Shown here: in pieces, positions 28,681 through 43,115 of the stretch
Position numbering within the stretch: the first letter of the stretch is position 1
How the letters are laid out: each line of letters starts with the position of its first letter
Assembly (NCBI GenBank): GCA_944389225.1
Contig: CALXLP010000005.1
Span: 1-57,221, forward strand
Length of the DNA stretch: 57,221 nt
Direction: 5' to 3'
Origin: an uncultured Clostridia bacterium
GTDB taxonomy: Bacteria > Bacillota > Clostridia > TANB77 > CAG-508
Made by a program: the position numbers and the translations under genes
Notes under the pieces: model-generated
Databases searched by the model: none
What the model was told of the DNA's origin: nothing
The model's input: only the letters and a program-made list of their open reading frames with translations

Positions 28681-28770
28681 GGGACAATTTGGGACGTTTC
28701 TTTTTGGACATTTTTTACTTACAATAAAAATTAAAATAACTGTCCAAAAAGAAACGTCCCAAATGGACAT
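28681..28770. repeat. Repeat-family site A: two inverted copies forming a 23-bp perfect-stem palindrome
   Basis: TTTGGGACGTTTCTTTTTGGACA (28688-28710), a 30-nt AT loop, then TGTCCAAAAAGAAACGTCCCAAA (28741-28763). An extra GGGACA / TGGACA word flanks each side. It starts 9 nt after the VanW stop codon. Confidence 0.85.
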
Positions 28771-30796: not shown

Positions 30797-31786
30797 CTAC
30801 TCTACTCCCGTTGCAATCACTGTAACAACAACTTTGTCATCCAAAGATTCATCTGTAATCGTTCCAAATACAACATTGGCATCTTCACTAATTAAATCAT
30901 TAATTTTACCAATCCCATCATTAATTTCGCTTAAAGCCAATTCAGAATTTCCTCGAACATTAAAGATAACACCTTTTGCATTATTGATTTTATTTTCTGT
31001 AAGCGCATTATCAATGGCTTGATTAACTGCATCCACCATTCTGCCTTCTCCTTCAGCTTCACCAATTCCCATATATGCCATTCCTTTATATGTTAGCATT
31101 GTTGTTATATCTGCAAAATCAACATTAATATCTCCTACTGATGTAATTAAATCTGTAATACTTTTGATTCCTTGCTCTAACACATTATCTGCCATTTTGA
31201 AAGCATTAATAACACTCATCTTTTGATTTCCAGCAACCTTTAATAATTTATCATTTGAAATTAAAATTAAGCTATTAACATGCTGTTTTAATTTTTCAAT
31301 TCCAACATCTGCTCTACTTGATCGTAATCTTCCTTCAAAAAGAAATGGTTTTGTAACAATCGCAATCGTTTGAATTCCCATCTCTTGTGCAATTTCTGCA
31401 ACTACAGGGATTGCTCCTGTTCCAGTTCCTCCTCCCATTCCTGCTGTTAAGAATAATAATTGTGTACCTTCTAATAGTTTTTTAATATCTTCTTTACTTT
31501 CAATTGCTGCTTTTTCTCCCATATCTGGGTTTGCTCCTGCACCTAATCCTTTAGTTGTTTCTTTTCCGATTTGTAATACATTTTCCATTTTTGTTTTATT
31601 TAACATAGCAAGTTCTGTATTAATAAAATAAAATTCAACATCTTTTACTTGATCTTCAACCATTTGTCTGACAGCATTATTGCCACCTCCACCAATTCCA
31701 ATGACTTTTATTTTTGGAATAGATGTCTTTATTTCTCCATATATATTTCCATAATTGTTTCCATATTTATTTTCTATTTGTATCAT
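30797..31786 (-). CDS. ftsZ: FtsZ-family tubulin-like GTPase lacking the C-terminal linker and tail
   Basis: 329 aa with '[12 protein letters not shown]', the tubulin signature '[10 protein letters not shown]' and T7 loop 'NVDFAD'. It ends '[11 protein letters not shown]', immediately after the globular core. The usual NTD.Q.L motif reads 'NTELAML'. No ftsA or dcw genes are nearby. Confidence 0.85.
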
Positions 31787-31984: not shown

Positions 31985-33283
31985 ATGGATATTTTTGATA
32001 AATTAAAAATACTTGCAGATTCTGCTAAATATGATGCTTCTTGTAGCTCTAGTGGTAGTAATCGAAAAAATACAAACGATGGAATTGGAAATGGTCATGT
32101 TTCTGGTATTTGCCATAGTTGGGGTGCAGATGGTCGTTGTATTTCTCTTTTAAAAATTCTATTTACAAATGCCTGTATGTATGATTGTAAATATTGTATT
32201 AATCGCTCTTCAAATTCTGTGCCTAGAGCCACCTTTACACCTCGTGAAGTTGCAGATTTAACCATTCATTTTTATAAACGAAATTATATTGAAGGTCTAT
32301 TTTTAAGTTCGGCAGTTATCAAATCTCCTGATTATACAATGGAAAGATTAGTTGAAACAGCTTCTATTTTGAGAAATGAATATCATTTTCATGGATATAT
32401 TCACTGTAAAACCATTCCTGGTTGTAGTCAAGAGTTGATTGATAAATTAGGTGTTTTGGTAGACAGGATGAGTATTAATATAGAACTTCCTTCAAATGAT
32501 AGTTTGAAATTATTAGCACCTCAAAAGGAAAAAGACGGAATTTTAAAACCAATGACCTATATTTCCAATACATTAAAATTAAATAAAATGGATAAATCAA
32601 AATATAAAGAGAAATTTGTTCCAGCAGGTCAAACCACACAATTAATGGTTGGTGCTACACCTGAAACAGATTTAAAGATATTAAAACTTTCTGAAGGAAT
32701 GTATAAATCTTTAAAACTAAAAAGAGTTTACTATTCTGCTTATGTTTCTATCAATAATGATAAAAACCTACCTACTTTAGAAAAACCACCACTTTTAAGA
32801 GAAAACCGATTATACCAAGCAGATTGGTTGCTTCGATTTTATGGGTTTCAAGCAGATGAACTATTAAATGAAGAACATCCAAATTTTAATACTTTATTAG
32901 ATCCTAAATGTGATTGGGCTTTAAGAAATTTAGATAAATTTCCAATAGAAATCAATACTGCTAATTATCACACTTTACTTAGAATTCCTGGTATTGGTGT
33001 GATTAGTGCCAAAAAAATTATTACTGCTAGAAGAGAATTTTTGTTAGATTTTGAAAGTCTAAAAAAATTAGGTGTTGTCTTAAAAAGAGCACAATATTTT
33101 ATAACTTGTAAAGGAAAATATTTTTATGAAGTCAATAAATTTAACAAAAATTTTATTGAAACTAATTTATTGTATACAGAAAGAAATACAATACCACAAA
33201 AGAAATTTGAACAATTATCAATGTTTGATACATTGTTGCCTACAAAGGAGGATAAAATAAAATGTCTAACTGGAAGCTTGTAA
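31985..33283 (+). CDS. Putative DNA modification/repair radical SAM protein (TIGR03916-type)
   Basis: 432 aa with a 'CMYDCKYC' CxxxCxxC cluster and a C-terminal helix-hairpin-helix 'LLRIPGIGVISAKKI'. Confidence 0.85.
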   Translation: MDIFDKLKILADSAKYDASCSSSGSNRKNTNDGIGNGHVSGICHSWGADGRCISLLKILFTNACMYDCKYCINRSSNSVPRATFTPREVADLTIHFYKRNYIEGLFLSSAVIKSPDYTMERLVETASILRNEYHFHGYIHCKTIPGCSQELIDKLGVLVDRMSINIELPSNDSLKLLAPQKEKDGILKPMTYISNTLKLNKMDKSKYKEKFVPAGQTTQLMVGATPETDLKILKLSEGMYKSLKLKRVYYSAYVSINNDKNLPTLEKPPLLRENRLYQADWLLRFYGFQADELLNEEHPNFNTLLDPKCDWALRNLDKFPIEINTANYHTLLRIPGIGVISAKKIITARREFLLDFESLKKLGVVLKRAQYFITCKGKYFYEVNKFNKNFIETNLLYTERNTIPQKKFEQLSMFDTLLPTKEDKIKCLTGSL

Positions 33284-34020
33284 ACACAACCTATTTATAT
33301 GATGGTACATTTGATGGATTATTAACCATTGTTTTTGAGAGCTATTCTCATAAAACATTGCCACAAAAAATTGTTTCAGAAGAGGAATATATACAAAATT
33401 TTTTAGATAAAACACAATATATAAATACCAATTATGAAAAGGCAAAACGTGTTTTTGAAGGAATTAATAAAAATATTTGCTATGAAGCTCTATATAATAG
33501 TTTTTATGCTTTTTTATCAGATGGAAAAGAGAAAGAAATTAAAATTCTAAAATATTTATGTGATGGATTTGACATCGGACCTAAAATTAACACTATGCTT
33601 ACTATTTCCTATGTCTTTTCTGTTATCAATATGAGAAAAAGAGCTTTATCAGAATGCCATAAGTTAAAAGGATTACTTCGATTTATGGAAATAGGAAAAA
33701 ATTTGTATTATGCCTCTATTCACCCAGATAACAATATTATAGAACCTTTAGGACATCACTTTATTAAAAGACTACCTACACAAAACTTTATCATTCACGA
33801 TAAGAACAGAAATATTTGTTTTTTATATAACTCACAAGAATACAAAATCATTGATAGCACCAATTTAACAATACCTGATGTTACTGAAGAAGAACAAAAA
33901 TACCAAGAACTTTGGAAATTATTTTTCAAAACCATTGCCATACAAGAAAGAAAAAATGCTAGATGTCAAATGCAATTTATGCCTAAAAAATATTGGCAAG
34001 ATTTAATTGAAGAACCATAA
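33262..34020 (+). CDS. TIGR03915/DUF4130-type putative DNA metabolism protein, partner of the radical SAM enzyme
   Basis: 252 aa starting '...YLYDGTFDGLLTIVFESY'. It overlaps the upstream gene by 22 nt, suggesting translational coupling. Confidence 0.72.
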   Translation: MSNWKLVNTTYLYDGTFDGLLTIVFESYSHKTLPQKIVSEEEYIQNFLDKTQYINTNYEKAKRVFEGINKNICYEALYNSFYAFLSDGKEKEIKILKYLCDGFDIGPKINTMLTISYVFSVINMRKRALSECHKLKGLLRFMEIGKNLYYASIHPDNNIIEPLGHHFIKRLPTQNFIIHDKNRNICFLYNSQEYKIIDSTNLTIPDVTEEEQKYQELWKLFFKTIAIQERKNARCQMQFMPKKYWQDLIEEP

Positions 34021-34237
34021 TGTCCAATTGGGGACGTTTCCTATTGGGACATTTTTAAATTATAAAAAACAACTTTTATCTTTACCATACATAAAATTTT
34101 CCCTACATATAAGACAAGGACACACCAAATTAGATATTTTTGTTTTTCGGTATGTCCTTTATCATTTTTATATCCGTTTTTTAATTATTTTATTTTGAAA
34201 AATGTCCAGACAGAAACGTCCCTAATTGGACATTTTT
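34019..34237. repeat. Repeat-family site B: 219-bp MITE-like element with ~37-nt terminal inverted repeats
   Basis: The left arm is AATGTCCAATTGGGGACGTTTCCTATTGGGACATTTTT (34019-34056). The right arm reverse-complemented is AATGTCCAATTAGGGACGTTTCTGTCTGGACATTTTT. It fills the gap between two convergent genes and overlaps both stop codons. Confidence 0.8.
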
Positions 34238-36780
34238 CTTACAATGCCTGTTGTTCCATCTAATTCCACTATATCACCGGTTTTTATATTATCCAGTAAT
34301 CCTGTAATTCCTACTACTGCAGGTATACCAAGTTCTCTTGAAACAATTGCTGAATGAGATAATAAACTTCCCCTTTCTACTAAAATTCCACTTGCAGCCG
34401 GAAATAGCATAATCCAACCCGGATCTGTATACTCAGCAACTAAAATTTCTCCTTGTTCTAATTTTGCATTTGCCGGATTATCTATTACTTTTACTCGTCC
34501 ACTAATTCTTCCTGGTGATGCTCCAATTCCTTTTAAAGTTTCTTTTTCATCTTTTATCTTATCTATATGTGTTTTATCTGCGTGAACTTCTATTTCCTTT
34601 TTAAAGTTATTTCCTATATTTACTGCTCCATAAGTGTAAAATCTTTCATCTGGATTAGTTTCCTTATATCTTTCATACTCTTTCTTTCGTATCGCAATTA
34701 AATCTTTCAAATTATTGGTCGTAGATTTTCCATCGATATAGTATAAAATTTCATCTACTTCTAAATAAAATATGTCTCTTTTTTCTTCTATAACATTTAA
34801 AGAAGTTAATATATATCCTATTCTTAAAAAGATTTCTCTTACTCTTCCAAAAAGTCTTGTTCTTTCAAACCTAAGATTTTCTCTATTTTTTACTGTATAT
34901 CTTGCTTGTTTTAATAAAAAGTTAAATTTAGCTTTTTCCAATGGCTTAAACTTTAAAATTTGTTTTACTTTTCTTTCTGCCTGTTTTCTAGCTTCTACAG
35001 AATCTAATGCATTTACTTTTGTTTTTTGCATTCTTCTTGCAAATGTCAATATTGAATGATATAAGCTAATAGGATTATCTTTTAATGTTAATGTTTCTAA
35101 TTTTAACTCCTGCAAACATCTATCTGAAAATTTATCTAAATATGCTTGTATTTTTTCATAAAATTCTGGATATTTAGGAAGTTCTTTTTGGATATATAAC
35201 ATATCTTCATTTTCTAATAATTTTAAAAGTTTTTCATCATCTTTTGCAATCTCTGCCATTTCTCGAATTCTTTTCGCTGGCTCTGCACTAATGATATTTC
35301 CTTCATCACATAATAAATCATTATGTATCAAGTTTCCATTTTCTTTAAATAATTTTTCACATTCTTGTTTCAATTGTCCATAAAAAATCATTGCCAAAAA
35401 GTCATTGACTAGTGGTGCATCCCATTTATGTAACAGTTTTCCTTCCAATTCATAGTAATAATCATGTAATTCATATAAGTCCATATGCTGGATATCTTTA
35501 TCTTCTAATGCTTCATTTAATCTTACATAGAATTTATCTGTCATTTTTCTTATTTTCATAAATCCTTTTAATAATCCATATCCAGTTGAAATCAATCCAA
35601 TTTTATCAGAAAATGTAGCTTGTGGTACTGGAAATAAGTCATCTGGCAAAGATTCTTTCACACCCATCATTTGCTCCATAAATTTCTTGTTTTTTCCTAA
35701 TCCTGGAAACATGGAAAGTAATCCATACCAACCATATAGATTATAATACACACGGCCGTCTATTAAAGCTAACATGTTTTTAAACATCTGTGCATTCATT
35801 TCTATTTTTTCTGCTTTTACATGAAATATTTTACACAATTCTAAATATACATTTTCATAGACAGTTCTAATAAAAGAGAATGTTAAGGGGGTTGTAATTC
35901 CTCCATAGCTCTCTACAATATTACTATTGTCAAATACATTTAACTTTTCTTCTTTATTTTTTACTGTTCCTAATGTTGTAATTGGTCTAGATTGTAATAG
36001 ATATAGATTCTCATCTTCATAAGCCCATTCAATATCTTGAAATCTTCCAAAAAACACATTTGCTTTTTCTACTAGTTCTTTAACTTCTAATATCTGGTTA
36101 TCTGTTAAAACTGCTTTATCCTTTTGTTTTTCGTTTACTGTTTCTTGCTTAATTTCACCATCTACATAAATATGACAATAATCTTTCTTGGCTATTGTTT
36201 TTGTAATTTTACCATTTAAAATAGTATAGGTATCTGCTGTTGCTATACCATCTACTAAACTACTTCCTAATCCATACACAGCATTAATGACAATTTCTTT
36301 TATATTAGAAGTAGTCGGATTTGCTCCAAATGCCACACCTGCTTTTTCTGATTTTACCATTTTTTGCACGATAACAGATGGAATCATTACCTCTTCTATA
36401 TGATTTTCTTTTCGATATGTTTCAATTCTTTCTGAAAAAGCAGATAAATATACTTCTTTTATTTTTTCGATAACCTCTTCTTTAGGAATATATAAAAAAG
36501 TATCGAATTGTCCTGCAAAAGATGTTTCTTTGGAATCCTCATTTCCTGCTGATGAACGAATGGCAAAATAAGTATCATCTGGAAACATTTTTAATGATTC
36601 TTCTACTTCTTTTACCGCTTCTTCTTTTAAGTTTTTTTCTTTTTTATCAAATCCTTCATAAGATACAACAAACCACTTTGGAATATTATCAATTGCCTGT
36701 CCCATTTTTGCCAAAGCTGTTGCTTTTCCTCCCATAAATTCATATTGTTTACTATTTTGTTCTAATACATATTTCATCAT
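34222..36780 (-). CDS. PEP-utilising dikinase-like enzyme: ATP-grasp N-domain plus C-terminal phospho-His swivel domain, no PEP/pyruvate TIM barrel (rifampin-phosphotransferase-like architecture)
   Basis: 852 aa with N-terminal 'GGKATALAKMG' (PPDK_N type) and C-terminal 'TDPGWIMLFPAASGILVERGSLLSHSAIVSRELGIPAVVG' (mobile His domain). Confidence 0.8.
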   Translation of the reverse strand: MMKYVLEQNSKQYEFMGGKATALAKMGQAIDNIPKWFVVSYEGFDKKEKNLKEEAVKEVEESLKMFPDDTYFAIRSSAGNEDSKETSFAGQFDTFLYIPKEEVIEKIKEVYLSAFSERIETYRKENHIEEVMIPSVIVQKMVKSEKAGVAFGANPTTSNIKEIVINAVYGLGSSLVDGIATADTYTILNGKITKTIAKKDYCHIYVDGEIKQETVNEKQKDKAVLTDNQILEVKELVEKANVFFGRFQDIEWAYEDENLYLLQSRPITTLGTVKNKEEKLNVFDNSNIVESYGGITTPLTFSFIRTVYENVYLELCKIFHVKAEKIEMNAQMFKNMLALIDGRVYYNLYGWYGLLSMFPGLGKNKKFMEQMMGVKESLPDDLFPVPQATFSDKIGLISTGYGLLKGFMKIRKMTDKFYVRLNEALEDKDIQHMDLYELHDYYYELEGKLLHKWDAPLVNDFLAMIFYGQLKQECEKLFKENGNLIHNDLLCDEGNIISAEPAKRIREMAEIAKDDEKLLKLLENEDMLYIQKELPKYPEFYEKIQAYLDKFSDRCLQELKLETLTLKDNPISLYHSILTFARRMQKTKVNALDSVEARKQAERKVKQILKFKPLEKAKFNFLLKQARYTVKNRENLRFERTRLFGRVREIFLRIGYILTSLNVIEEKRDIFYLEVDEILYYIDGKSTTNNLKDLIAIRKKEYERYKETNPDERFYTYGAVNIGNNFKKEIEVHADKTHIDKIKDEKETLKGIGASPGRISGRVKVIDNPANAKLEQGEILVAEYTDPGWIMLFPAASGILVERGSLLSHSAIVSRELGIPAVVGITGLLDNIKTGDIVELDGTTGIVRKMSN

Positions 36781-36788
36781 CTGTTCTC

Positions 36789-37782
36789 CTATAAAATTAA
36801 TATTACTAAACTACAATATACAATGGCTATATAGATATTTGCCGAAAGTCCTGCTAATTTTGCCATCTTTTTTGTTTTCTTTTTGGCAAATAAAATATTG
36901 GGAATATTGGCTAATATGTATAAAGCAACTATCCAGATATAATTTTTCTGTCCTAGGATTGTACCTTGTACAAGCATTAGCAAAGTTTCCAATACAAATA
37001 TTAGTCCCATTGCTTTACCAATACCTAAAATAGCTGTATAGGTTTTGACTCCCTCTTCTTCCTCTTCTTTACACCTAATTTTTCTAGCAACTTCTACTAT
37101 CCAAGATATAATATATGCCATCACTAATATTTTCCAAACATTTGGGTTTACAAATATAATAGAATTCGTTATGGTAAAATCTGCTGATGAATTATAATTA
37201 AGATAAATTTGTGGAATAAAATTTGCTAAATATAGAACCATTATGGGAAGTATCAGTTCATCTAAGGTAACTTCTAGTAATAAATGTTTATCTAATATCT
37301 TTTTTATAAAAAATCCTTTACTCATAAGTGCAAAAAACACCCACAATATGATTAAATATAAAATTCCATTTTGTGAACACGTAATTGTTAAAATTAGTTG
37401 AAGGATTATACAAATAACAAATAATATTTTTAATTCTTTTAATTTTATCAGACCTCTTGGTACTGGTCTATAAGGTCTATATTTACAATCTTCTTCATAA
37501 TCCTTAAACTCATCTACAATTCTTACCATTAGAAATTGCAAAAATGTTACAATAAACATAGGAATCAATTTTATCCATTGTATTTGATATTCTGGCGGTC
37601 TTCCGCATCAAATCCGTATATGCAACATCACTAAAATTATTCATCCATTCATAATAATACATTTCTCCATAATAGTTAAAGAAACAAAAAGTAGCAAATA
37701 CAATACAAAACACATATAGTCCATATACAAGTACTGGAAATCTCTCTTTTTGGTATGTATACCATTTTTTTATTTGATTCAT
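36789..37782 (-). pseudogene. UbiA-superfamily prenyltransferase-like membrane protein, apparently frameshifted near 37590-37610
   Basis: The 259-aa ORF carries 'RIVDEFKDYEEDCKYRPYRPVPRGLI', an Asp-rich first motif followed by RP.P.G, plus about 8 TMs. A 90-aa upstream ORF supplies a further N-terminal TM. The downstream frame stays open back to 'CGRPPEYQIQWIKLIPMF'. Alternatively the gene starts at 37568. Confidence 0.55.
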
Positions 37783-37793
37783 ATTTTCCCCCT

Positions 37794-39287
37794 TTATTTA
37801 TTTAATATTTTTCTTAATTCATTATAATCTACCTTTGTACTATGTCTTTTATCTACTGGTATCTTCGAAACATATTTAATTTCATCAATTTTTTCAAAAG
37901 GAATGGCTTTTTTAATTTCTTCTATTGGTGTTTTTTCATGATTTTCCAATACCAAAATCAATTTTGAGTCATTTTCAAAGACTGCTGTCTTTCCAATTGC
38001 AAATTTTGCATGTAAAGCTGCTTCAATATGAAAATATGGTTCTTTTACTCTTCCTCTTAACCATAACCTTCCTTTTTCATCAAGTTGCCCCATATCTCCT
38101 GTTCTGTGATATATCGTATCTTCTACTGTAAATTTGTTTTCTTTATCACCTATGCCACCAACATATCCTTTTAGCACATTTGTTCCTGTTACCACAATCT
38201 CTCCCACTTCATTTGTTTGTAAATTTAAAAATTTACCCTTTGTGATAGTTCCGATTGGCTCTTTTTGTGGTTTTATGATGTTACATTCCGTCACACCAAC
38301 AATCTCTCCTGCCAAAATGCCTTTTCCATTTTCTGTGTCTTTTATGTCTTGTTTTGTCATATCCTCTATATGTAATATAGCAATTGGTTCTGCCTCTGTT
38401 GATCCATAGATTGTATGTATGGTTGCATTTTCAAAAACCTGTTGTAATTTTTTGATTAAATCTAAAAATACAGCACCTCCGCCTGTATAGATTTTTTTCA
38501 CATCTTTTAATTTTATATCTTTATCAATACAATAGTTTGTAATTACTTGTAATAGTCCAGGTGATGCCATGATTCTATTAATGTTTTTATCTCTTATTTG
38601 TTTTATCAATCTTTTAGGATTCGATTTTCCTAAATTGGTAAAATTCCCATTTGCTATAACGGTTGTGATTCCTACGTAAATATTTGATAATGTAAAAATA
38701 GGAATAGTTGAAAGTTCTCTATCTTTTTCTTCATAATCCGCAATTTGTTTTAAGATATTTCCTTGATTTTCTAAAAATTCATGTGTCCTTGCTGCTATCT
38801 TTGGAACACCTGTTGTTCCACTTGTATATGTTAAAATCCCTGGAAAATCTTTTTCTACTTCTTCTACTACTAACTTTCTACTGAATGGTGTTTTTTTGAT
38901 TTGTTTAACATCTATCTTTATTTTTAATTTTTTTAAATTTTCATTCACTTGGCTATATAAAATATATTTCGTCGTTCCAACAATACTATTAATATCATCA
39001 AATTCATTTTTCTTTAATCCATTTTTAATAAATCCTGCATCCATAAAACAAGGAATCGCTCCTAGTGACCAAATAGAGAGTAAAGTTACATATAAATTGA
39101 TTGACATAGGAACTAGTACTAACACTTTATCTCCTTGTTTAATTCCTTTACTTTTCAAATTGTCTTTAAAATTTGCTACTAGGTTATATAGCTCTGCATA
39201 AGTAACTTGTGTATCCTTTTCTATTAAACATATTTTATTCGGCATCTTTTCATAATTTTTGATTAGTTGATAGGCTAAATTCCTCAT
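37794..39287 (-). CDS. AMP-forming adenylating enzyme (acyl-CoA/acyl-carrier ligase superfamily)
   Basis: 497 aa with 'LTYTSGTTGVPK' (A3), 'YHRTGDMG...GRLWLRGR' (A8) and a C-terminal catalytic Lys region. Confidence 0.85.
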   Translation of the reverse strand: MRNLAYQLIKNYEKMPNKICLIEKDTQVTYAELYNLVANFKDNLKSKGIKQGDKVLVLVPMSINLYVTLLSIWSLGAIPCFMDAGFIKNGLKKNEFDDINSIVGTTKYILYSQVNENLKKLKIKIDVKQIKKTPFSRKLVVEEVEKDFPGILTYTSGTTGVPKIAARTHEFLENQGNILKQIADYEEKDRELSTIPIFTLSNIYVGITTVIANGNFTNLGKSNPKRLIKQIRDKNINRIMASPGLLQVITNYCIDKDIKLKDVKKIYTGGGAVFLDLIKKLQQVFENATIHTIYGSTEAEPIAILHIEDMTKQDIKDTENGKGILAGEIVGVTECNIIKPQKEPIGTITKGKFLNLQTNEVGEIVVTGTNVLKGYVGGIGDKENKFTVEDTIYHRTGDMGQLDEKGRLWLRGRVKEPYFHIEAALHAKFAIGKTAVFENDSKLILVLENHEKTPIEEIKKAIPFEKIDEIKYVSKIPVDKRHSTKVDYNELRKILNK

Positions 39288-39338
39288 CTTTTGTATTTCA
39301 TCCCCTTTTTCCCGTTGGATTTTTAAGTTAGAAAAGAA

Positions 39339-40271
39339 TTAAATTTTCTTTCCATACAAGGCATACTCTCGCATAAGTTCTGTTTGATTTCGTTTTGCCA
39401 TTTTTTGTGAAGTGTTATTGGCATACATAAAAGCACATATCCAATTTCTAAATCCTTTTTGTTTAGCAATTTTAGCAATATCACTCATTAGTACATTTCC
39501 AATGGCAAGATTTTGAAATTCCGGTATCACTGCGACAGTTTTCACAATAATCGTACTTATCTTTTCTCCTCTTTTTGTTTCTTCAAAATCTGGTATACAG
39601 AATATAAAGCCAATTTCTTTTCCATCTTTTTCTGCCAATAAAATAATATCTTCATCAGCTAAATGAACATAAGGTATATATTGTTTTAAAAAAGGTTCTT
39701 CATCAATTGGTGTATATAGTGGATTTCTCCCAAAGCTTTTTAATGAAATATGATATATTTTCTTTAAATCCTCCATATACTTTTCTTTATTAAATTTTCT
39801 AATGGTAATACCCTCTTCTTGTATTTTTTTCCTCATCATTTCTATACTTTGAGATTGGTAAGCATTTTCCAACTTTCCTTTGGTTGAAGTATATGTATAT
39901 ATCTCTTGATAACCTGCTTTTAATAATAATTCATTATCACTCATTGGATTGACATTCTCTAATAAAAATAGAGGTTCTCCATTTGACTGTTTCATTGTTC
40001 TATATTTTCCCCATGTATTTTCATTCATCGGTGCAACTATATAATACAATCCTTTTCCTTTTAAAATTTCTTCACATTTTTCTAATAAAAATTTTCCATA
40101 TTGTTTGTCTGAGATTTCCATTTCTCCAATTGTTCCCATTTTTTCGTCATTTACGATTGGTGTATTTTGAAAATAGCAAGTAGCTTTTGCTTTTTCTTCT
40201 CCATTTTCTAAAATTGTTACTTTTATATTTTCTTGATTCTCTACAATTTCAAAATTCATCTTCTTTTTCAT
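39339..40271 (-). CDS. Two-domain GNAT-family acyltransferase
   Basis: 310 aa. The C-terminal half has 'VIPEFQNLAIGNVLMSDIAKIAKQKGF', the acyl-CoA binding motif. Confidence 0.65.
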   Translation of the reverse strand: MKKKMNFEIVENQENIKVTILENGEEKAKATCYFQNTPIVNDEKMGTIGEMEISDKQYGKFLLEKCEEILKGKGLYYIVAPMNENTWGKYRTMKQSNGEPLFLLENVNPMSDNELLLKAGYQEIYTYTSTKGKLENAYQSQSIEMMRKKIQEEGITIRKFNKEKYMEDLKKIYHISLKSFGRNPLYTPIDEEPFLKQYIPYVHLADEDIILLAEKDGKEIGFIFCIPDFEETKRGEKISTIIVKTVAVIPEFQNLAIGNVLMSDIAKIAKQKGFRNWICAFMYANNTSQKMAKRNQTELMREYALYGKKI

Positions 40272-40351
40272 GATTTAGATCTGTTTGCTTAATATTTTAT
40301 TTAGTAAAATATATTAAAAATATATATTATCAGATTTAAATCATTTTCCTC

Positions 40352-41698
40352 CTATACAATGTTAAAATATTGGATAAAACAAATGATAGCTGTTAATACT
40401 AGCACAATTTCTGTATGCATATATCCATTTTTTATTGAAATTTCTTCTTTTTCTACTTTTCTTTTTTGTATATATATCATCAAACAACTAGCAAACAAGC
40501 ATACAATCATAAGAATAATCATTTGTAAACTAGGTAAATTATGAAATACCAGATTTTGAATGACTAAACTTGGTAAAAAGATAAAACATAATCCTTTAGC
40601 AAAAGACAGGATCATACTATCTATTTCTGATAAATTAAAATAATATTTTAATCTTACAAATGTATTAATATCTAAATGCATGCTATATACTAAACTATAT
40701 ATCATAAAAAATTCTGCTTTCCAACCAGTAATTGCTACAATTCCGCAAATAGCTATTCCTAAAATCACATTGGTTTCAATAATTCTAGCATCATATAGAT
40801 TATGTTGTTCCTTTTCTGTTACTTTTGGAAATCTCATAACTGTTAAAAACAAAATCAATGGCGGTATAATGGCATATATTCCATATAATGTAATTGTTAG
40901 ATAGCCTACAACTAGTGTTTCTACTAGTGCCAATTTACTCCATGCCTTTACTCTGTTAGCAATCGTTACTAGTATAAATATCACACCTAATATAATCAAA
41001 TTGATTCTTAATTGTTCTACACCTAACCCCATATGTGTTGCCAAAAAAGCATATGTTGTTAATGGAATCAATAGATTATCATTTCCACTATGTGAAATCA
41101 TCTCAACTAGAGCCACATTAAATCCTACAATAGTAGCAATAATCAATGTTTCTTCTCTTCCTACTTGTGTAAATAGTAATAAAGGTACCAATGTTGCTAC
41201 AAAAGCTACCATAAAAAAGATAAAACTTCCTTCAATACTTTTAGCATCTTCATTTAACTCTGCCAAATTTTTCTTTCCATAATTCTTTCCAATTAATGCT
41301 GCTGCACTATCTGCAAAGGTTAAAATTAATATAGGAATACTATATAAAACTTTATCTCCTTTTGATAAATAGAAAATCAAAAATACAGATATCACAAAAA
41401 AGATTTCCCCTAAAGATTCTCTATTGACACTATATAATACCGTTCCTAATCCTTCTTTTAATTTTGTATGCTTTAACAAAACTAATATTGCTAATGCAAT
41501 AACTGCTAATATGCACACAGAAAGTACATTATGAAATACATAAGGAAATGTTAGCATAATCAATCCCATTGTCATATGTAATAATTTTCGTTTTAATTCT
41601 GTATGTATTTTGGTTTTTTTTTCGATTAACTTTATCACACACATAGCTATCAAAAGCATACACAAAACAAATCCAATGCTTAACCACTCTATATTCAT
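40352..41698 (-). CDS. Polytopic membrane protein with N-terminal CTP-transferase-1 (dolichol/phytol-kinase or CdsA-like) domain fused to an extra ~230-aa TM domain
   Basis: 448 aa with 'KRKLLHM..G', 'FADSAAALIGKNYGKK' and 'KSIEGSFIFF', as in the VTE5/DolK/CdsA family, followed by 6-7 further TMs. Confidence 0.55.
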   Translation of the reverse strand: MNIEWLSIGFVLCMLLIAMCVIKLIEKKTKIHTELKRKLLHMTMGLIMLTFPYVFHNVLSVCILAVIALAILVLLKHTKLKEGLGTVLYSVNRESLGEIFFVISVFLIFYLSKGDKVLYSIPILILTFADSAAALIGKNYGKKNLAELNEDAKSIEGSFIFFMVAFVATLVPLLLFTQVGREETLIIATIVGFNVALVEMISHSGNDNLLIPLTTYAFLATHMGLGVEQLRINLIILGVIFILVTIANRVKAWSKLALVETLVVGYLTITLYGIYAIIPPLILFLTVMRFPKVTEKEQHNLYDARIIETNVILGIAICGIVAITGWKAEFFMIYSLVYSMHLDINTFVRLKYYFNLSEIDSMILSFAKGLCFIFLPSLVIQNLVFHNLPSLQMIILMIVCLFASCLMIYIQKRKVEKEEISIKNGYMHTEIVLVLTAIICFIQYFNIV

Positions 41699-42850
41699 TT
41701 ATATAACCTCCTCTATAATAAATTTACTATAGAAAAAGGCTTTATCTTGTTTAAATAATTCTTTTGATTCTTTTTCTTTATATACTAAATTATCAAAATA
41801 TTTTGATGCCCTTTTATCGGCCAACATATTCCAATAAGCAATTCTTGTTCCAGATGGTGATTTCGTAAATATCTTTTCAAAAATTTTACACATTTGCTCA
41901 TCACTCATATATTCAAAGATATCGCTTAAATTATATTTACTAATATAATCTATCTCTTCTTTTTGGATAAAATCCTCAACAGAATCCTTTAACAAGTAAA
42001 TTTTATCTATATTTTTCTTAATCATTTCAAAATTTTCTTTTCTATATGCTACTGGCAATACATTTTCATCATATTTTCCATTAATAATATACTGTAAATA
42101 TGAATTTTCTGATGTATCTAATTCTGTAATAGCATATTTGGTTCTTTCTAAAATATGCTCAGCCACATTTACATGAACATAGCGAAAAAAAGCTTTATCT
42201 CTACCTAATTTTCCCATAACGGTTTTAGAAAAGAATAACCTAAAAAGCATTTGCCATCTCATATTATTCCATTTTTGATCATAGAATTGAATTCTCTCTT
42301 CTCTTGTTTTCTTTTGTAATAATTCTTCTCTTATTGATTTTTTATGAATAAATGGTAAGACTTTTTTACCAAATAGATGAAAATATCTTTCGAATTTTCC
42401 TGTATGGATAATTCCTTTTTCTACCATTTCCAAATTGCTATCTAAATATGCTCTTGTATGTTTAGATAGTTTATCTGCAATTTTTTGGTAGATTGTAATT
42501 CTATCTTCACAATCAAAAACACCAATGAATTCCATACATTCTTGATAATCTAAATATTTATACCCTATGATTTTTAATTCTGTACAAGCAATCTGATTTT
42601 CACTTAAATCAATTGCAAAAACTTTATTTGGATTTTTGATTAACATGCTAATTGCATTTTCTCCTGCTGATGCAATAGACAATATATTATCATTTTCATG
42701 TATATCTAATGCTTGTAATAAAATGTCTGCATCTTCCCAAACTTGTGCATATCTTAATATATCAAATTTTGCATAATCTTCTACTTCACTTTTTACTAAT
42801 TGTTTTTCTTCTAGATTTTCTTTATTTTCCACAATTTCTTTTGTACTCAT
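41699..42850 (-). CDS. BtaA-like (DUF3419) S-adenosylmethionine:lipid 3-amino-3-carboxypropyl transferase homologue
   Basis: 383 aa with 'RYAQVWEDADILLQALDIHENDNILSIASAGENAISML', matching the conserved N-terminal region of BtaA-type proteins. Its stop abuts the next gene's start. Confidence 0.68.
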   Translation of the reverse strand: MSTKEIVENKENLEEKQLVKSEVEDYAKFDILRYAQVWEDADILLQALDIHENDNILSIASAGENAISMLIKNPNKVFAIDLSENQIACTELKIIGYKYLDYQECMEFIGVFDCEDRITIYQKIADKLSKHTRAYLDSNLEMVEKGIIHTGKFERYFHLFGKKVLPFIHKKSIREELLQKKTREERIQFYDQKWNNMRWQMLFRLFFSKTVMGKLGRDKAFFRYVHVNVAEHILERTKYAITELDTSENSYLQYIINGKYDENVLPVAYRKENFEMIKKNIDKIYLLKDSVEDFIQKEEIDYISKYNLSDIFEYMSDEQMCKIFEKIFTKSPSGTRIAYWNMLADKRASKYFDNLVYKEKESKELFKQDKAFFYSKFIIEEVI

Positions 42851-42995
42851 ATTTCCCCTCTTTAACTTTTTACTTTCATTAATATAATCCTACCATAAAA
42901 CGATTTTTTCTTCAATAAAAATTGATTATTTGACATGTATTTTTTTGGTAAAAATAGAAAATTATGATAGTACTTATTAATTCAATAGTTAACCC

Positions 42996-43032
42996 AAAAC
43001 CGCCAGCGAGAATATGACTTGCTGGCGGTTTT
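42996..43032 (-). terminator. Intrinsic terminator of the ABC transporter operon
   Basis: AAAACCGCCAGC-13 nt-GCTGGCGGTTTT. The stem is GC-rich and a T-run follows on the minus strand. Confidence 0.75.
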
Positions 43033-43057: not shown

Positions 43058-43115
43058 AAAAAATGTTCTGTCCCTTTTGGACGAAAAATGTCCATTTTGA
43101 CACGTCCCCAAAAGA
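43058..43115. repeat. Repeat-family site C
   Basis: Minus strand, right after the permease stop codon, reads TAG-tcttttgGGGACGTGTCAAAATGGACATTTTTCGTCCAAAAGGGACAGAACATTTTTT. Confidence 0.7.

What the first reader, a model, noticed from the sequence alone, without database searches (positions are those of the whole stretch)
34222..42850. Six-gene operon that looks like an uncharacterised membrane-lipid / isoprenoid-conjugate pathway
Seen in the sequence: six co-directional genes are packed with gaps of 0, 80, 51, 11 and 8 nt.
- A BtaA-like DUF3419 protein (41699-42850).
- A membrane protein whose N-half resembles CTP-dependent prenol kinases or CdsA, fused to an extra polytopic domain (40352-41698).
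- A two-domain GNAT (39339-40271).
- An adenylate-forming ligase (37794-39287).
- A UbiA-type prenyltransferase (36789-37782).
- A dikinase-like enzyme with an ATP-grasp domain and a phospho-His swivel domain but no PEP/pyruvate barrel (34222-36780).

Established knowledge:
- BtaA transfers the 3-amino-3-carboxypropyl group of SAM to diacylglycerol in betaine-lipid (DGTS) synthesis and normally works with the methyltransferase BtaB, which is absent here.
- VTE5 / dolichol kinases phosphorylate prenols with CTP.
- UbiA enzymes transfer prenyl chains.
- The ATP-grasp + swivel-His architecture without a barrel is that of rifampin phosphotransferase, which phosphorylates a small-molecule hydroxyl.

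Inference: the set could activate a prenol or lipid alcohol and prenylate or alkylate an acceptor. It could then install a homoserine-type head group and N-acylate it via ligase plus GNAT instead of methylating it. I know of no characterised pathway with this gene combination. The cluster is bracketed by copies of the dispersed repeat (sites B and C).
Basis: partly seen in the sequence, partly recalled or inferred. Interest (0 to 1): 0.72.

Follow-up and report, generated by a model that had tools for sequence, protein, structure and literature searches.

The report
Conserved six-gene lipid-conjugate operon, uncharacterised
This gut Clostridia operon is one copy of a six-enzyme gene cassette found next to each other in bacteria of more than a dozen phyla, which probably makes an unknown membrane-bound isoprenoid/amino-acid-type lipid and which no paper or curated protein family that I could search describes.

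Summary
The six co-directional genes, their gaps (0, 80, 51, 11, 8 nt) and all six family assignments hold. One correction is needed. The UbiA gene is not one open frame: it is 994 nt and needs a +1 shift near 37607-37593.

In 68 of 82 related loci all six families are contiguous. The loci come from Clostridia, Bacteroidota, Acidobacteriota, Verrucomicrobiota, Proteobacteria, Deinococcota, Melainabacteria, Actinomycetota and others. Three gene pairs are always kept: UbiA + Rph-like kinase, DUF3419 + membrane protein, GNAT + ligase.

- The DUF3419 protein belongs to a clade separate from true BtaA (23-24% identity), and no BtaB is present.
- The UbiA is nearest to the O-prenylating DGGGP and chlorophyll synthases.
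- The membrane protein is a remote DUF92/CdsA-type relative.
- The GNAT is a tandem GNAT.
- The dikinase-like enzyme has the Rph/PigC architecture.
- HMG-CoA reductase joins the cluster in seven loci.

NCBIfam has no specific model for three of the proteins. Ten literature searches found nothing on this gene combination.

Best reading: an uncharacterised pathway for a prenylated, N-acylated lipid head-group conjugate. The chemistry is inferred, not shown. Two cultured carriers, Brevibacillus laterosporus and Roseinatronobacter, make it testable.

The parts
41699..42850 (-). DUF3419 (BtaA-family) SAM-dependent transferase, 383 aa, first gene of the operon. It belongs to a cluster-specific clade, not the BtaA clade.
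   Evidence: Pfam PF11899, E 1.6e-66, covering profile positions 4-383 of 385. No NCBIfam hit and no PDB sequence match. The tree and identities place it with cluster-type orthologues (33-73% identity). It shares 23-24% identity with BtaA proteins that sit next to BtaB. The WED and SAG(D/E)N motifs are shared with BtaA.
40352..41698 (-). Polytopic membrane protein, 448 aa. The conserved N-half (about 1-230) is a remote DUF92/CdsA-type CTP-enzyme-like domain. The C-half is polytopic, poorly conserved and of unknown role. Its start codon abuts the stop codon of the DUF3419 gene.
   Evidence: No Pfam or NCBIfam hit of its own. The family is large: 3049 representatives at E<=1e-3, mostly 430-460 aa. 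Invariant motifs are E..RK..H, R.S.GE, ADxxAxxxG, K.xEG and GxDN..IP. DUF92 is the only recurrent Pfam hit among relatives: 7 of 36 and 11 of 87, best E 1.3e-7. The AF2 model has pLDDT 90.7. The top PDB fold is CdsA 4Q2E, probability 0.97 but E 0.15.
39339..40271 (-). Tandem-GNAT acyltransferase, 310 aa (relatives start at Met5, giving 306 aa).
   Evidence: Pfam Acetyltransf_1, E 5e-12, on residues 188-294 only. The AF2 model has pLDDT 93.5. Foldseek matches two-domain GNATs over the full length: GlcN N-acetyltransferase 5KF2, MAB_4324 7Q3A, MshD 1OZP, VipF, FemX and the MprF synthase domain, with E from 2e-13 to 1e-8. Orthologues conserve PMxGNTWxxYR, NFLYxPI and ILKT.AV.
37794..39287 (-). 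Adenylate-forming (ANL) ligase, 497 aa, of the fatty-acid-CoA-ligase-like type.
   Evidence: Pfam AMP-binding, E 1.5e-41. The best NCBIfam model is PRK09274 'fatty acid CoA ligase family protein' at 282 bits, below its cut-off of 478; OleC-type models come next. PDB hits are ANL enzymes, E 5e-17 and weaker. The core motifs TSGTTGxPK, GSTE and TGD can be read directly in the translation.
37608..37782 (-). UbiA gene, part 1 (frame A). It encodes the invariant N-terminal KWxxYQKERFP motif and the first transmembrane helix. The ORF runs on to a stop at 37510.
   Evidence: ORF list and three-frame translation. The motif is invariant across phyla. Variable sites in 18 sequences give 9 synonymous to 5 non-synonymous in this frame, against 3 to 11 in the other frame.
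37593..37607 (-). Zone where reading must pass from frame A to frame B by a +1 shift. The sequence is ..TTG ATG CGG AAG ACC.., and CGG is the second-rarest sense codon in the window.
   Evidence: The last frame-B stop is at 37608-37610, and homology to intact orthologues resumes just downstream. CGG occurs 8 times in 15,247 codons. All 18 sequences share the arrangement.
36789..37607 (-). UbiA gene, part 2 (frame B). It encodes transmembrane helices 2 onward with both catalytic motifs, (D)EFKDYEED..RPYRPVPRGL and VEVARKIR..EEEEEGVKTY. The mechanical ORF runs 36789-37568.
   Evidence: Pfam UbiA, E 3.8e-12, 46.5 bits against a cut-off of 34.2. All 22 orthologues hit UbiA. The orthologue profile is closest to DGGGP synthase 6M31 (6.3e-9), then chlorophyll synthase. 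dN/dS is 0.13-0.21 against close relatives.
34222..36780 (-). Rph/PigC-type phosphotransferase, 852 aa: ATP-grasp domain, middle domain and C-terminal phospho-His swivel domain, with no PEP/pyruvate-binding barrel. Last gene of the operon.
   Evidence: Pfam PPDK_N (residues 53-278) and PEP-utilizers (775-845) only. The L001 orthologue also carries PF27448 Rph_4th. The best PDB match is Listeria rifampin phosphotransferase 5FBS/5HV1, E 2e-68. NCBIfam scores are PRK06241.2-2 719 bits (cut-off 883), PigC 336 bits and Rph 322 bits (cut-off 999). The swivel motif LLSHSAIVSRELGIP is present.
42851..43032 (-). Upstream non-coding region. It holds a GC-rich hairpin followed by a T-run (about 42996-43032) that would end the preceding ABC-transporter genes, then about 140 nt of leader and promoter region for the operon.
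   Evidence: Read directly from the sequence. No Rfam family matches. Promoter-like hits are no more frequent than in shuffled sequence.
34199..34222 (-). Copy of the lineage-specific intergenic repeat (GGGACGTNTC-N-GGACATTTT) that overlaps the stop codon of the last gene. Partner copies lie at 34031-34055 (+) and 43085-43108 (-).
   Evidence: Four matches against 0 expected. The repeat is found only in the closest relatives.

Best explanation
**What it is.** The six genes are one transcription unit. They encode a self-contained biosynthetic cassette that is spread across bacterial phyla and has not been characterised. It is built from three invariant gene pairs:
1. An intramembrane UbiA-family prenyltransferase of the O-prenylating (DGGGP-synthase / chlorophyll-synthase) type, with an Rph/PigC-type ATP-grasp / swivel-His phosphotransferase.
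2. A DUF3419 (BtaA-family) SAM-dependent transferase, with a membrane protein whose N-half is a DUF92/CdsA-like CTP-using enzyme.
3. A tandem-GNAT acyltransferase, with an acyl-adenylate-forming ligase.

**Most likely mechanism (inferred).**
- A lipid or prenyl alcohol is phosphorylated by the Rph-like enzyme.
- The DUF92-like domain then converts it to the diphosphate or to a CDP-activated form. This parallels plant phytol salvage by VTE5 and VTE6.
- The UbiA enzyme transfers the prenyl group onto an oxygen of an acceptor in the membrane.
- The DUF3419 enzyme adds a SAM-derived 3-amino-3-carboxypropyl (homoserine-type) group.
- The free amine of that group is N-acylated by the tandem GNAT, using an acid activated by the ligase.
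- The product would be a membrane-anchored isoprenoid amino-lipid.

**Shown versus inferred.** Gene content, domain architectures, family affinities, operon structure and conservation are shown. Every substrate, the order of steps and the product are inferred.

**This lineage.** The UbiA gene carries a fixed +1 frame break but is still under purifying selection. The pathway is therefore probably still active here, through recoding or through a two-piece enzyme.
For: **Synteny**
- All six families are contiguous in 68 of 82 loci. The loci come from Clostridia, Tannerella/Porphyromonadaceae, Oscillospiraceae, Defluviitaleaceae, Acidobacteriota, Gemmatimonadota, Verrucomicrobiota, Alpha- and Gammaproteobacteria, Desulfobacterota, Deinococcales, Melainabacteria, Coriobacteriia and Vulcanimicrobiota.
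- Brevibacillus and Roseinatronobacter carry it too.
- There are two gene orders. Each is a circular permutation of the other, and both keep the three pairs.

**Family and architecture evidence**
- Pfam, NCBIfam and PDB assignments.
- UbiA profile nearest to DGGGP synthase and chlorophyll synthase.
- DUF92 is the only recurrent Pfam hit for the membrane protein family, and CdsA is the top fold match.
- Tandem GNAT fold.

**Links to isoprenoid and fatty-acyl metabolism**
- HMG-CoA reductase lies directly upstream of the cluster (next to UbiA where UbiA is present) in L058, L066, L072, L073, L074 and L087, and next to the membrane-protein gene in the incomplete L064.
- A fatty-acyl-type ligase fused to a carrier domain follows the cluster in many Clostridia relatives.

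**Signs the genes are functional**
- dN/dS is mostly 0.05-0.2 for the six genes (0.33-0.38 in three very close comparisons that rest on few substitutions).
- There is no internal terminator.

**Not described elsewhere**
- No NCBIfam model exists for three of the proteins.
- PGAP names two of them 'hypothetical protein'.
- Literature searches found nothing.
Against: - No substrate or product is known. Each family is functionally broad.
- The DUF3419 protein is only 23-24% identical to BtaA proteins linked to BtaB. Other DUF3419 proteins sit in unrelated contexts, next to speD or a CoF-synthetase-like gene. Aminocarboxypropyl transfer is therefore not assured.
- The kinase assignment of the membrane protein rests on remote hits. 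The window protein itself has no Pfam hit, and the Foldseek match has E 0.15.
- The second UbiA motif is Glu-rich rather than the canonical Asp-rich motif.
- PigC-type relatives of the dikinase-like enzyme catalyse condensation, not simple phosphorylation.
- Accessory genes (a P450 in Brevibacillus; a ligase-carrier fusion) would also fit a diffusible natural product.
- The UbiA gene of this window is interrupted.
Confidence: 0.55

Rival explanations
1. The cassette is a secondary-metabolite gene cluster. It would make a diffusible prenylated, N-acylated small molecule such as a signal, siderophore-like compound or antibiotic, not a structural membrane lipid. In this reading the Rph/PigC-like enzyme acts as an ATP-dependent condensing or activating enzyme, as PigC does in prodigiosin assembly.
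For: - The dikinase-like protein scores as well against PigC/RedH models (336 and 320 bits) as against Rph (322 bits).
- Variable accessory tailoring genes occur at the edges: a P450 in Brevibacillus and an adenylation-carrier didomain in Clostridia relatives.
- The patchy distribution across phyla suggests horizontal transfer of a module.
Against: - Two of the six invariant proteins are polytopic membrane enzymes.
- The core is remarkably invariant, with few tailoring genes.
- There is no transporter, regulator or NRPS/PKS core among the conserved genes.
Confidence: 0.2
2. The cassette is a variant betaine-lipid (DGTS/DGHS) pathway. The DUF3419 protein would be a true BtaA acting on diacylglycerol, and the other genes would merely be neighbours.
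For: - The match to the BtaA family domain is full length, E 1.6e-66.
- Rhodobacter BtaA is the founding member of DUF3419 (PMC6642084).
- The WED and SAGxN motifs are shared.
Against: - Identity to BtaA proteins that sit next to BtaB is only 23-24%, and the cluster-type proteins form a separate clade.
- No BtaB-type methyltransferase is present in any of the 68 clusters.
- The DUF3419 gene abuts or overlaps the membrane-protein gene and travels with five other families across phyla.
Confidence: 0.07
3. The cassette is a drug-resistance or detoxification island. The Rph-like enzyme would phosphorylate a rifamycin-type antibiotic and the GNAT would acetylate an aminoglycoside-type drug.
For: - The closest solved structure is Listeria rifampin phosphotransferase, E 2e-68.
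- There are weak GNAT hits to AAC(6') and ArsN1 models.
Against: - The Rph equivalog score is 322 bits against a cut-off of 999, and the AAC(6') score is 17 bits against 265.
- Strict co-inheritance with UbiA, DUF3419, a ligase and a membrane enzyme across phyla is not expected of resistance genes.
Confidence: 0.03
4. In this particular lineage the cassette is decaying. The UbiA frameshift would be an inactivating mutation inherited from a recent ancestor, and the operon would no longer make its product.
For: - The UbiA reading frame is broken in the window and in all 17 related sequences examined that carry this UbiA variant.
- Two relatives (L007, L008) also have a one-base insertion before the swivel domain of the dikinase-like gene.
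- No slippery sequence or Shine-Dalgarno stimulator is evident at the junction.
Against: - Both halves of UbiA evolve under purifying selection: dN/dS is about 0.1 and 0.13-0.21, like the neighbouring genes.
- Variable sites favour frame A before the junction (9 synonymous to 5 non-synonymous) and frame B after it. The dead tail of frame A shows 0 synonymous to 4 non-synonymous.
- The break lies in a hypervariable loop between the first and second transmembrane helices.
- The break is fixed across 15 haplotypes from many samples without further lesions.
Confidence: 0.15

Closest known systems
BtaA/BtaB betaine-lipid (DGTS) synthesis (Rhodobacter sphaeroides; rhizobia)
   Same: The first gene is a full-length member of the BtaA family (DUF3419). 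It has the same N-terminal WED and SAGxN motifs. Like BtaA, it sits in what appears to be a lipid context.
   Different: It belongs to a separate clade, with 23-24% identity to BtaA proteins that sit next to BtaB. No BtaB methyltransferase is present. It is always paired with a DUF92-like membrane enzyme and four other families.
Plant/cyanobacterial phytol salvage feeding UbiA-type transferases (VTE5 phytol kinase, VTE6 phytyl-phosphate kinase, then VTE2/ChlG). This comparison rests on my own knowledge of the pathway.
   Same: The logic is the same: a membrane CTP-dependent kinase-type enzyme of the DUF92/CdsA superfamily works with a UbiA-family transferase. The UbiA here is nearest to chlorophyll synthase and DGGGP synthase. 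DUF92 is the only recurrent Pfam hit for the membrane protein family.
   Different: The homology is remote, and the window protein itself misses the DUF92 model. The first kinase would be an unrelated soluble Rph-type enzyme. Three further enzymes (DUF3419, GNAT, ligase) have no counterpart in phytol salvage.
Rifampin phosphotransferase (Rph) and prodigiosin condensing enzymes PigC/RedH
   Same: The three-part architecture is the same: ATP-grasp domain, substrate domain and C-terminal swivel His domain, with no PEP-binding barrel. The best solved relative is Listeria Rph.
   Different: It scores far below the Rph and PigC equivalog cut-offs (322 against 999; 336 against 1300). It is closer to the unnamed group PRK06241.2-2 (719 bits). 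It is always adjacent to, or overlapping, a UbiA gene.
Archaeal ether-lipid steps: DGGGP synthase (UbiA family) followed by CDP-archaeol synthase CarS (CdsA-like)
   Same: It pairs a UbiA enzyme, whose closest solved structure is M. jannaschii DGGGP synthase (6M31, E 6.3e-9), with a CdsA-like membrane enzyme.
   Different: It scores far below the DGGGPS equivalog cut-off (20 bits against 353). No GGGP synthase or G1P dehydrogenase is present in the cluster. The organisms are bacteria from many phyla.
ebo cluster (six-gene, UbiA-containing, widely transferred bacterial/plastid operon; PMC5133447, PMC6282210)
   Same: It is a conserved six-gene cassette centred on a UbiA prenyltransferase. It is scattered across phyla and its product was unknown when it was found.
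   Different: Only the UbiA family is shared. To my knowledge the other ebo genes (TatD-like, sugar-phosphate-cyclase-like, xylose-isomerase-like, pyrophosphatase-like) are absent here.
MprF / FemX-type tandem-GNAT transferases that modify lipid or cell-wall head groups
   Same: The GNAT has the two-domain GNAT fold of these enzymes (Foldseek E about 1e-9). It lies in a cluster with polytopic membrane proteins.
   Different: The best fold matches are acetyl-CoA-dependent tandem GNATs: GlcN N-acetyltransferase, MshD and MAB_4324. It is partnered with an ANL ligase rather than aminoacyl-tRNA.

Membership tests
BtaA (SAM:diacylglycerol 3-amino-3-carboxypropyl transferase) | Full-length DUF3419/BtaA domain | tested here: met
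   PF11899, E 1.6e-66, profile positions 4-383 of 385.
BtaA (SAM:diacylglycerol 3-amino-3-carboxypropyl transferase) | Groups with BtaA proteins of known genomic context (next to btaB) | tested here: not met
   Identity is 23-24% to the Rhizobium leguminosarum and Chondrinema proteins that sit next to a class I methyltransferase. Cluster-type proteins form their own clade.
BtaA (SAM:diacylglycerol 3-amino-3-carboxypropyl transferase) | Partner N-methyltransferase BtaB present | tested here: not met
   No methyltransferase is among the conserved or recurrent neighbours in 68 clusters.
BtaA (SAM:diacylglycerol 3-amino-3-carboxypropyl transferase) | Transfers the aminocarboxypropyl group of SAM to diacylglycerol | not testable with these tools
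   This needs an enzyme assay that detects methylthioadenosine release and a homoserine lipid.
UbiA intramembrane prenyltransferase superfamily | Pfam UbiA match above the curated cut-off | tested here: met
   46.5 bits against a cut-off of 34.2 for the 259-aa part. All 22 orthologues match.
UbiA intramembrane prenyltransferase superfamily | Two acidic metal-binding motifs | tested here: inconclusive
   The first motif, DE(F/H)KDxxxD followed by RPxRPVPRG, is conserved. The second is Glu-rich, (D/E)EExGVxTY, rather than the canonical DxxDxxxD.
UbiA intramembrane prenyltransferase superfamily | Uninterrupted reading frame | tested here: not met
   A +1 break lies between the first and second transmembrane helices in the window and in 17 related sequences. 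Orthologues elsewhere are intact.
DGGGP synthase / chlorophyll synthase (O-prenylating UbiA enzymes) | Reaches the equivalog score of those families | tested here: not met
   These are the nearest solved structures (6M31 at 6.3e-9; ChlG at 4.7e-4). NCBIfam scores are 20 bits against a cut-off of 353, and 20 bits against 212.
Rifampin phosphotransferase (Rph) | ATP-grasp domain plus C-terminal swivel His domain, no PEP/pyruvate barrel | tested here: met
   Only PPDK_N and PEP-utilizers match. The orthologue carries Rph_4th. The best PDB match is 5FBS.
Rifampin phosphotransferase (Rph) | Reaches the Rph equivalog score | tested here: not met
   NF041857: 321.6 bits against a cut-off of 999. NF000283: 227.6 bits against 1700.
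PEP synthase / pyruvate phosphate dikinase | C-terminal PEP/pyruvate-binding TIM barrel | tested here: not met
   There is no PEP-utilizers_C match. The swivel domain is the C-terminus.
DUF92 / CdsA-type CTP-dependent membrane enzymes (VTE6, CdsA, CarS, dolichol kinase) | Significant match to a family model or solved structure | tested here: inconclusive
   The window protein has no Pfam hit at E<=1. Among relatives, 18 of 123 hit DUF92, best E 1.3e-7. A profile against PDB sequences gave no hit. Foldseek's top hit is CdsA 4Q2E, probability 0.97, E 0.15, TM 0.22-0.34. The D..A...G and K.xEG motifs are invariant.
Tandem GNAT acyltransferases | Two GNAT-fold domains in one chain | tested here: met
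   The AF2 model has pLDDT 93.5. Full-length Foldseek matches to 5KF2, 7Q3A, 1OZP and 2WPW have E from 2e-13 to 6e-10.
ANL adenylate-forming ligases | AMP-binding domain with core motifs | tested here: met
   PF00501, E 1.5e-41. The TSGTTGxPK, GSTE and TGD motifs can be read in the translation. It falls below the PRK09274 cut-off (282 bits against 478), so substrate specificity is unknown.

The most novel reading that the evidence does not exclude
The cassette encodes a previously undescribed pathway, found across many bacterial phyla, for a new class of isoprenoid amino-lipid. A prenol would be activated by a two-enzyme relay: an Rph-type swivel-His kinase followed by a DUF92-type CTP enzyme. 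A DGGGPS-like UbiA would attach it through oxygen. The molecule would carry a SAM-derived aminocarboxypropyl head group N-acylated by a tandem GNAT and ligase pair. In this Clostridia lineage the prenyltransferase would be made through a programmed +1 ribosomal frameshift at a rare CGG codon.
Probability: 0.15. Interest if true: 0.85.

Novelty: new variant of a known kind. Interest (0 to 1): 0.66.

Why it matters
All six enzyme families are known, but this fixed combination is not described in anything I could search. It recurs almost unchanged in gut Clostridia of humans, chickens, rabbits and sheep. It is also present in Tannerella, Akkermansiaceae, soil Acidobacteriota, Deinococcales, Melainabacteria and others. 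A cassette this widely transferred and this strictly conserved very likely makes a defined molecule with a selectable role at the cell envelope.

Identifying the molecule would have several consequences:
- It would assign a function to a membrane protein family with about 3,000 representative sequences and no Pfam model.
- It would assign a function to a second clade of DUF3419 proteins, which are now annotated by default as BtaA-like.
- It would assign a function to a third branch of the Rph/PigC enzyme group.
- It would warn against inferring betaine-lipid synthesis or rifampicin resistance from those domain hits.

Cultured carriers make the question directly testable. The conserved frame break in the UbiA gene is a candidate case of recoding, or of a naturally split membrane enzyme.

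Tried and rejected
- **Literature.** Ten full-text searches found no paper on this gene set. They combined DUF3419, BtaA, UbiA, phosphoenolpyruvate synthase, rifampin phosphotransferase, HMG-CoA reductase, GNAT, acyl-CoA ligase, Brevibacillus and VTE6/DUF92.
  - The lipocone paper (PMC12419801) describes other UbiA and GNAT neighbourhoods, not this one.
  - The BtaA+UbiA hit in PMC10134865 came only from strings in its reference list.
- **Membrane protein.** A profile of the family against PDB sequences gave no hit. Foldseek gave only a weak CdsA match and nothing for the C-terminal half.
- **Searches that needed a second attempt.**
  - The first genome scan, with a 36-sequence alignment, failed for lack of a conserved block. 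It worked with 9 closer sequences.
It was repeated with database hits.
- **Names and regulatory elements.**
  - The cluster-member look-up gave no names for any of the proteins.
  - No riboswitch or other Rfam element lies in or upstream of the operon.
  - Promoter-like hits are at the level of shuffled sequence.
- **Ideas rejected.**
  - Transcriptional slippage at the A7 run near the UbiA start cannot explain the frame break, because frame B has stops until 37608.
  - Internal initiation at TTG 37568 or ATG 37559 has no Shine-Dalgarno sequence, and one synonymous-only site lies upstream of them. I consider it less likely, but it is not excluded.
  - A single 596-aa DUF3419-membrane fusion (P0201) looks like a read-through or frameshifted gene call in a high-GC contig. 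I did not use it as evidence.

Full report
**1. The observation**

The window has about 28% G+C. It matches MAGs labelled uncultured Clostridia or Eubacteriales from chicken, rabbit, sheep, mouse and human gut at 92-97% protein identity.

There is no terminator-like site on the coding strand inside the block. No Rfam family matches in or upstream of it. A GC-rich hairpin with a T-run at about 42996-43032 separates the block from the preceding ABC-transporter genes. One transcription unit is therefore the natural reading.

One point is wrong. 36789-37782 is 994 nt and is not a single ORF. It consists of a 90-aa ORF (37510-37782) and a 259-aa ORF (36789-37568) in frames offset by +1.

**2. The six proteins**

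*DUF3419 (41699-42850)*
- It matches Pfam PF11899 over the full length, E 1.6e-66.
- It has no NCBIfam model and no PDB relative by sequence.

*Membrane protein (40352-41698)*
- It has no Pfam or NCBIfam hit.
- An exhaustive HMMER search found 3049 representative relatives, 401 of them at E<=1e-30. Nearly all are 430-460 aa at 30-40% identity. This is a large unnamed family with a fixed architecture.
- Its invariant residues all lie in the N-half: E..RK..H, R.S.GE, ADxxAxxxG, K.xEG and GxDN..IP.
- DUF92 is the only Pfam family that relatives hit repeatedly: 7 of 36 and 11 of 87, best E 1.3e-7.
- A confident AF2 model (pLDDT 90.7) has CdsA (4Q2E) as its top PDB fold match. That match is weak: probability 0.97, E 0.15.
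- To my knowledge DUF92 contains the plant phytyl-phosphate kinase VTE6, and the D..A...G / K.xEG pattern is that of the CdsA, dolichol-kinase and phytol-kinase group.
- The C-half is poorly conserved and is missing from some distant orthologues.

*GNAT (39339-40271)*
- Only its C-half hits Acetyltransf_1.
- Its AF2 model (pLDDT 93.5) matches two-domain GNATs over the full length: GlcN N-acetyltransferase, MAB_4324, MshD, VipF, FemX and the MprF synthase domain.

*Ligase (37794-39287)*
- It is an ANL enzyme, nearest to the 'fatty acid CoA ligase family' model PRK09274 and then to OleC-type models. All scores are below the cut-offs.

*UbiA*
- The UbiA fragment passes the Pfam cut-off, and all 22 orthologues match UbiA.
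- A profile of orthologues is nearest to M. jannaschii DGGGP synthase (6M31, E 6.3e-9), then chlorophyll synthase. Both of these transfer prenyl groups to oxygen.
- The first acidic motif is conserved. The second is Glu-rich.

*Dikinase-like protein (34222-36780)*
- It has PPDK_N and the swivel domain but no PEP-binding barrel.
- Its orthologue carries Rph_4th.
- Its best solved relative is Listeria rifampin phosphotransferase, E 2e-68.
- It scores far below the Rph and PigC equivalog cut-offs. It is closest to an unnamed group, PRK06241.2-2, at 719 bits against a cut-off of 883.

**3. Synteny**

I scanned one genome per GTDB species with a small alignment of the membrane protein and obtained 80 loci. 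Together with two plasmid-collection records, I called ORFs and assigned them to the six families with phmmer.

- All six families are contiguous in 68 of 82 loci. Most of the rest are cut by contig ends.
- Thirty-five loci (gut Clostridia) have the window's order.
- Thirty-three have UbiA-kinase-DUF3419-membrane-GNAT-ligase. These come from:
  - Tannerella and Porphyromonadaceae;
  - Oscillospiraceae, Defluviitaleaceae, Gracilibacteraceae and Peptostreptococcaceae;
  - Acidobacteriota;
  - Verrucomicrobiota;
  - Alpha- and Gammaproteobacteria;
  - Desulfatibacillum;
  - Deinococcales;
  - Melainabacteria;
  - Coriobacteriia;
  - Vulcanimicrobiota.
- Contig-truncated or partial versions also occur in Gemmatimonadaceae and Latescibacterota.
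- The two orders are circular permutations. Both keep three pairs together: UbiA + kinase, DUF3419 + membrane protein, GNAT + ligase.

Only two other gene families recur at the edges of the cluster:
- HMG-CoA reductase lies directly upstream of the cluster in L058, L066, L072, L073, L074 and Brevibacillus L087, and next to the membrane-protein gene in the incomplete L064.
- A fatty-acyl-type ligase fused to a carrier domain lies downstream in many Clostridia relatives. It is absent from the window.

Two carriers are cultured: Brevibacillus laterosporus B9 and Roseinatronobacter sp. S2. In the latter, PGAP calls the membrane protein and the GNAT 'hypothetical protein'.

**4. Relation to BtaA**

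DUF3419 proteins that sit beside a class I methyltransferase, the btaA-btaB arrangement, occur in Rhizobium leguminosarum and Chondrinema. They are 23-24% identical to the window protein. Cluster-type proteins from other phyla are 33-73% identical to it and form one clade.

Other DUF3419 proteins occur beside speD or a CoF-synthetase-like gene, so the family is functionally diverse. The shared WED and SAGxN motifs fit a SAM-dependent transferase, but they do not fix the group that is transferred.

**5. Mechanism**

What is shown:
- A conserved operon encodes two membrane enzymes and four soluble ones.
- Their nearest relatives are O-prenyltransferases, hydroxyl-phosphorylating swivel-His enzymes, CTP-dependent lipid kinases or cytidylyltransferases, a SAM aminocarboxypropyl transferase of lipids, amine-acylating tandem GNATs and acyl-adenylate ligases.
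- There is a recurrent link to HMG-CoA reductase and to a fatty-acyl-carrier ligase.

What I infer from this:
- A lipid or prenyl alcohol is activated in two steps, first by the Rph-like enzyme and then by the DUF92-like enzyme.
- UbiA transfers it to an oxygen of an acceptor.
- The DUF3419 enzyme builds a SAM-derived amino-acid-type head group.
- GNAT and ligase N-acylate that head group.

No step has direct evidence.

The main rival is a diffusible prenylated natural product. It is favoured by the PigC similarity and by the P450 and carrier-ligase accessories. Readings as a resistance island, PEP synthase or true DGTS pathway fail specific tests (see the membership table).

**6. The frame break in UbiA**

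- The break lies in the loop between the first and second transmembrane helices, which varies in length between orthologues.
- Three near relatives (L012-L014) have an intact 305-aa gene with a different loop that is 25 nt shorter. The window, L007-L011 and 12 further metagenome contigs from other samples all carry the break: 18 sequences, 15 haplotypes.
- The part upstream of the break encodes the family's most conserved motif, KWxxYQKERFP.
- dN/dS is about 0.1 upstream of the break and 0.13-0.21 downstream, like the neighbouring genes.
- Variable sites are 9 synonymous to 5 non-synonymous in frame A before the junction.
  - After the junction, frame B is favoured.
  - The frame-A tail shows 0 synonymous to 4 non-synonymous.
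  - One site that is synonymous only in frame B lies upstream of the possible internal start codons.
- The shift has to occur within 37607-37593, at ..ATG CGG AAG... CGG is used 8 times in 15,247 codons.

This fits a +1 recoding event at a hungry codon, or a two-piece enzyme. It argues against a dead gene. The counts are small, and no known stimulator is present.

**7. Novelty and verdict**

I found no description of this cassette in ten literature searches. Curated libraries leave the DUF3419 and membrane proteins without any NCBIfam hit, and the GNAT with only far-sub-threshold hits to unrelated models. The other three match only sub-threshold or generic models.

All the parts belong to known enzyme superfamilies. 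I therefore rate it a new variant of a known kind, a lipid or isoprenoid-conjugate biosynthetic operon, rather than categorically new.

The breadth and strictness of conservation, the presence in animal and human gut bacteria, the availability of cultured carriers and the possible recoding event make it worth experimental follow-up.

Noticed in passing
window 37593-37610 (minus strand), within 36789-37782: The UbiA gene needs a +1 frame change at ..TTG ATG CGG AAG.., where CGG is the second-rarest sense codon. The break is fixed in 18 sequences (15 haplotypes) from many samples, and both halves are under purifying selection. It is a candidate programmed +1 frameshift or a naturally split membrane enzyme.
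   Followed up: partly
L087 3935-5395; L058, L064, L066, L072, L073, L074 upstream of UbiA: An HMG-CoA reductase gene (PF00368, E 1e-106 to 1e-118) sits directly upstream of the cassette in seven loci. These are Brevibacillus, Acidobacteriota, Chloroflexota, Akkermansiaceae, Opitutia, Desulfatibacillum and an unclassified bacterium. Brevibacillus also has a P450 directly downstream.
   Followed up: partly
L001 17209-18945 and the same position in L015, L016, L019, L024, L029-L032, L036, L037: A seventh gene follows the cassette in many Clostridia relatives but is absent from the window. It encodes a fatty-acyl-type AMP ligase fused to a phosphopantetheine carrier domain.
   Followed up: partly
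window 28691-28714, 28751-28760, 34031-34055, 34199-34222, 43085-43108: A short dispersed intergenic element is built of GGGAC(G/A)T units in both orientations (GGGACGTNTC-N-GGACATTTT), often as inverted pairs at gene 3' ends. One copy supplies the last codons and the stop of the dikinase-like gene. It is found only in the closest relatives, and its function is unknown.
   Followed up: partly
window 34450-34560 region of 34222-36780; L007, L008, L010, L011, L013: The linker before the swivel-His domain of the dikinase-like protein varies in length between close relatives: a Lys/Glu/Asn/Asp-rich insert of up to about 30 codons. L007 and L008 have an extra C there that breaks the frame.
   Followed up: no
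window 36789-37782 compared with L012-L014: The UbiA gene is much more diverged between the window group and L012-L014 than the flanking genes are. blastn aligns only the last 337 nt, whereas the neighbours are 90-98% identical. This suggests allelic replacement or recombination inside the operon.
   Followed up: no
L090 2989-4475; L091 1695-4083: Other DUF3419 proteins sit next to an S-adenosylmethionine decarboxylase gene (Deefgea plasmid) or a CoF-synthetase-like adenylating enzyme (Rhizobium plasmid). These are further uncharacterised contexts for this family.
   Followed up: no
window 31985-34020 (plus strand), 30797-31786 (minus strand): A radical-SAM-like protein (432 aa) and an overlapping 252-aa partner converge on the operon's 3' end. 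Beyond them lies a short FtsZ-like protein (329 aa). I did not run family searches on these.
   Followed up: no
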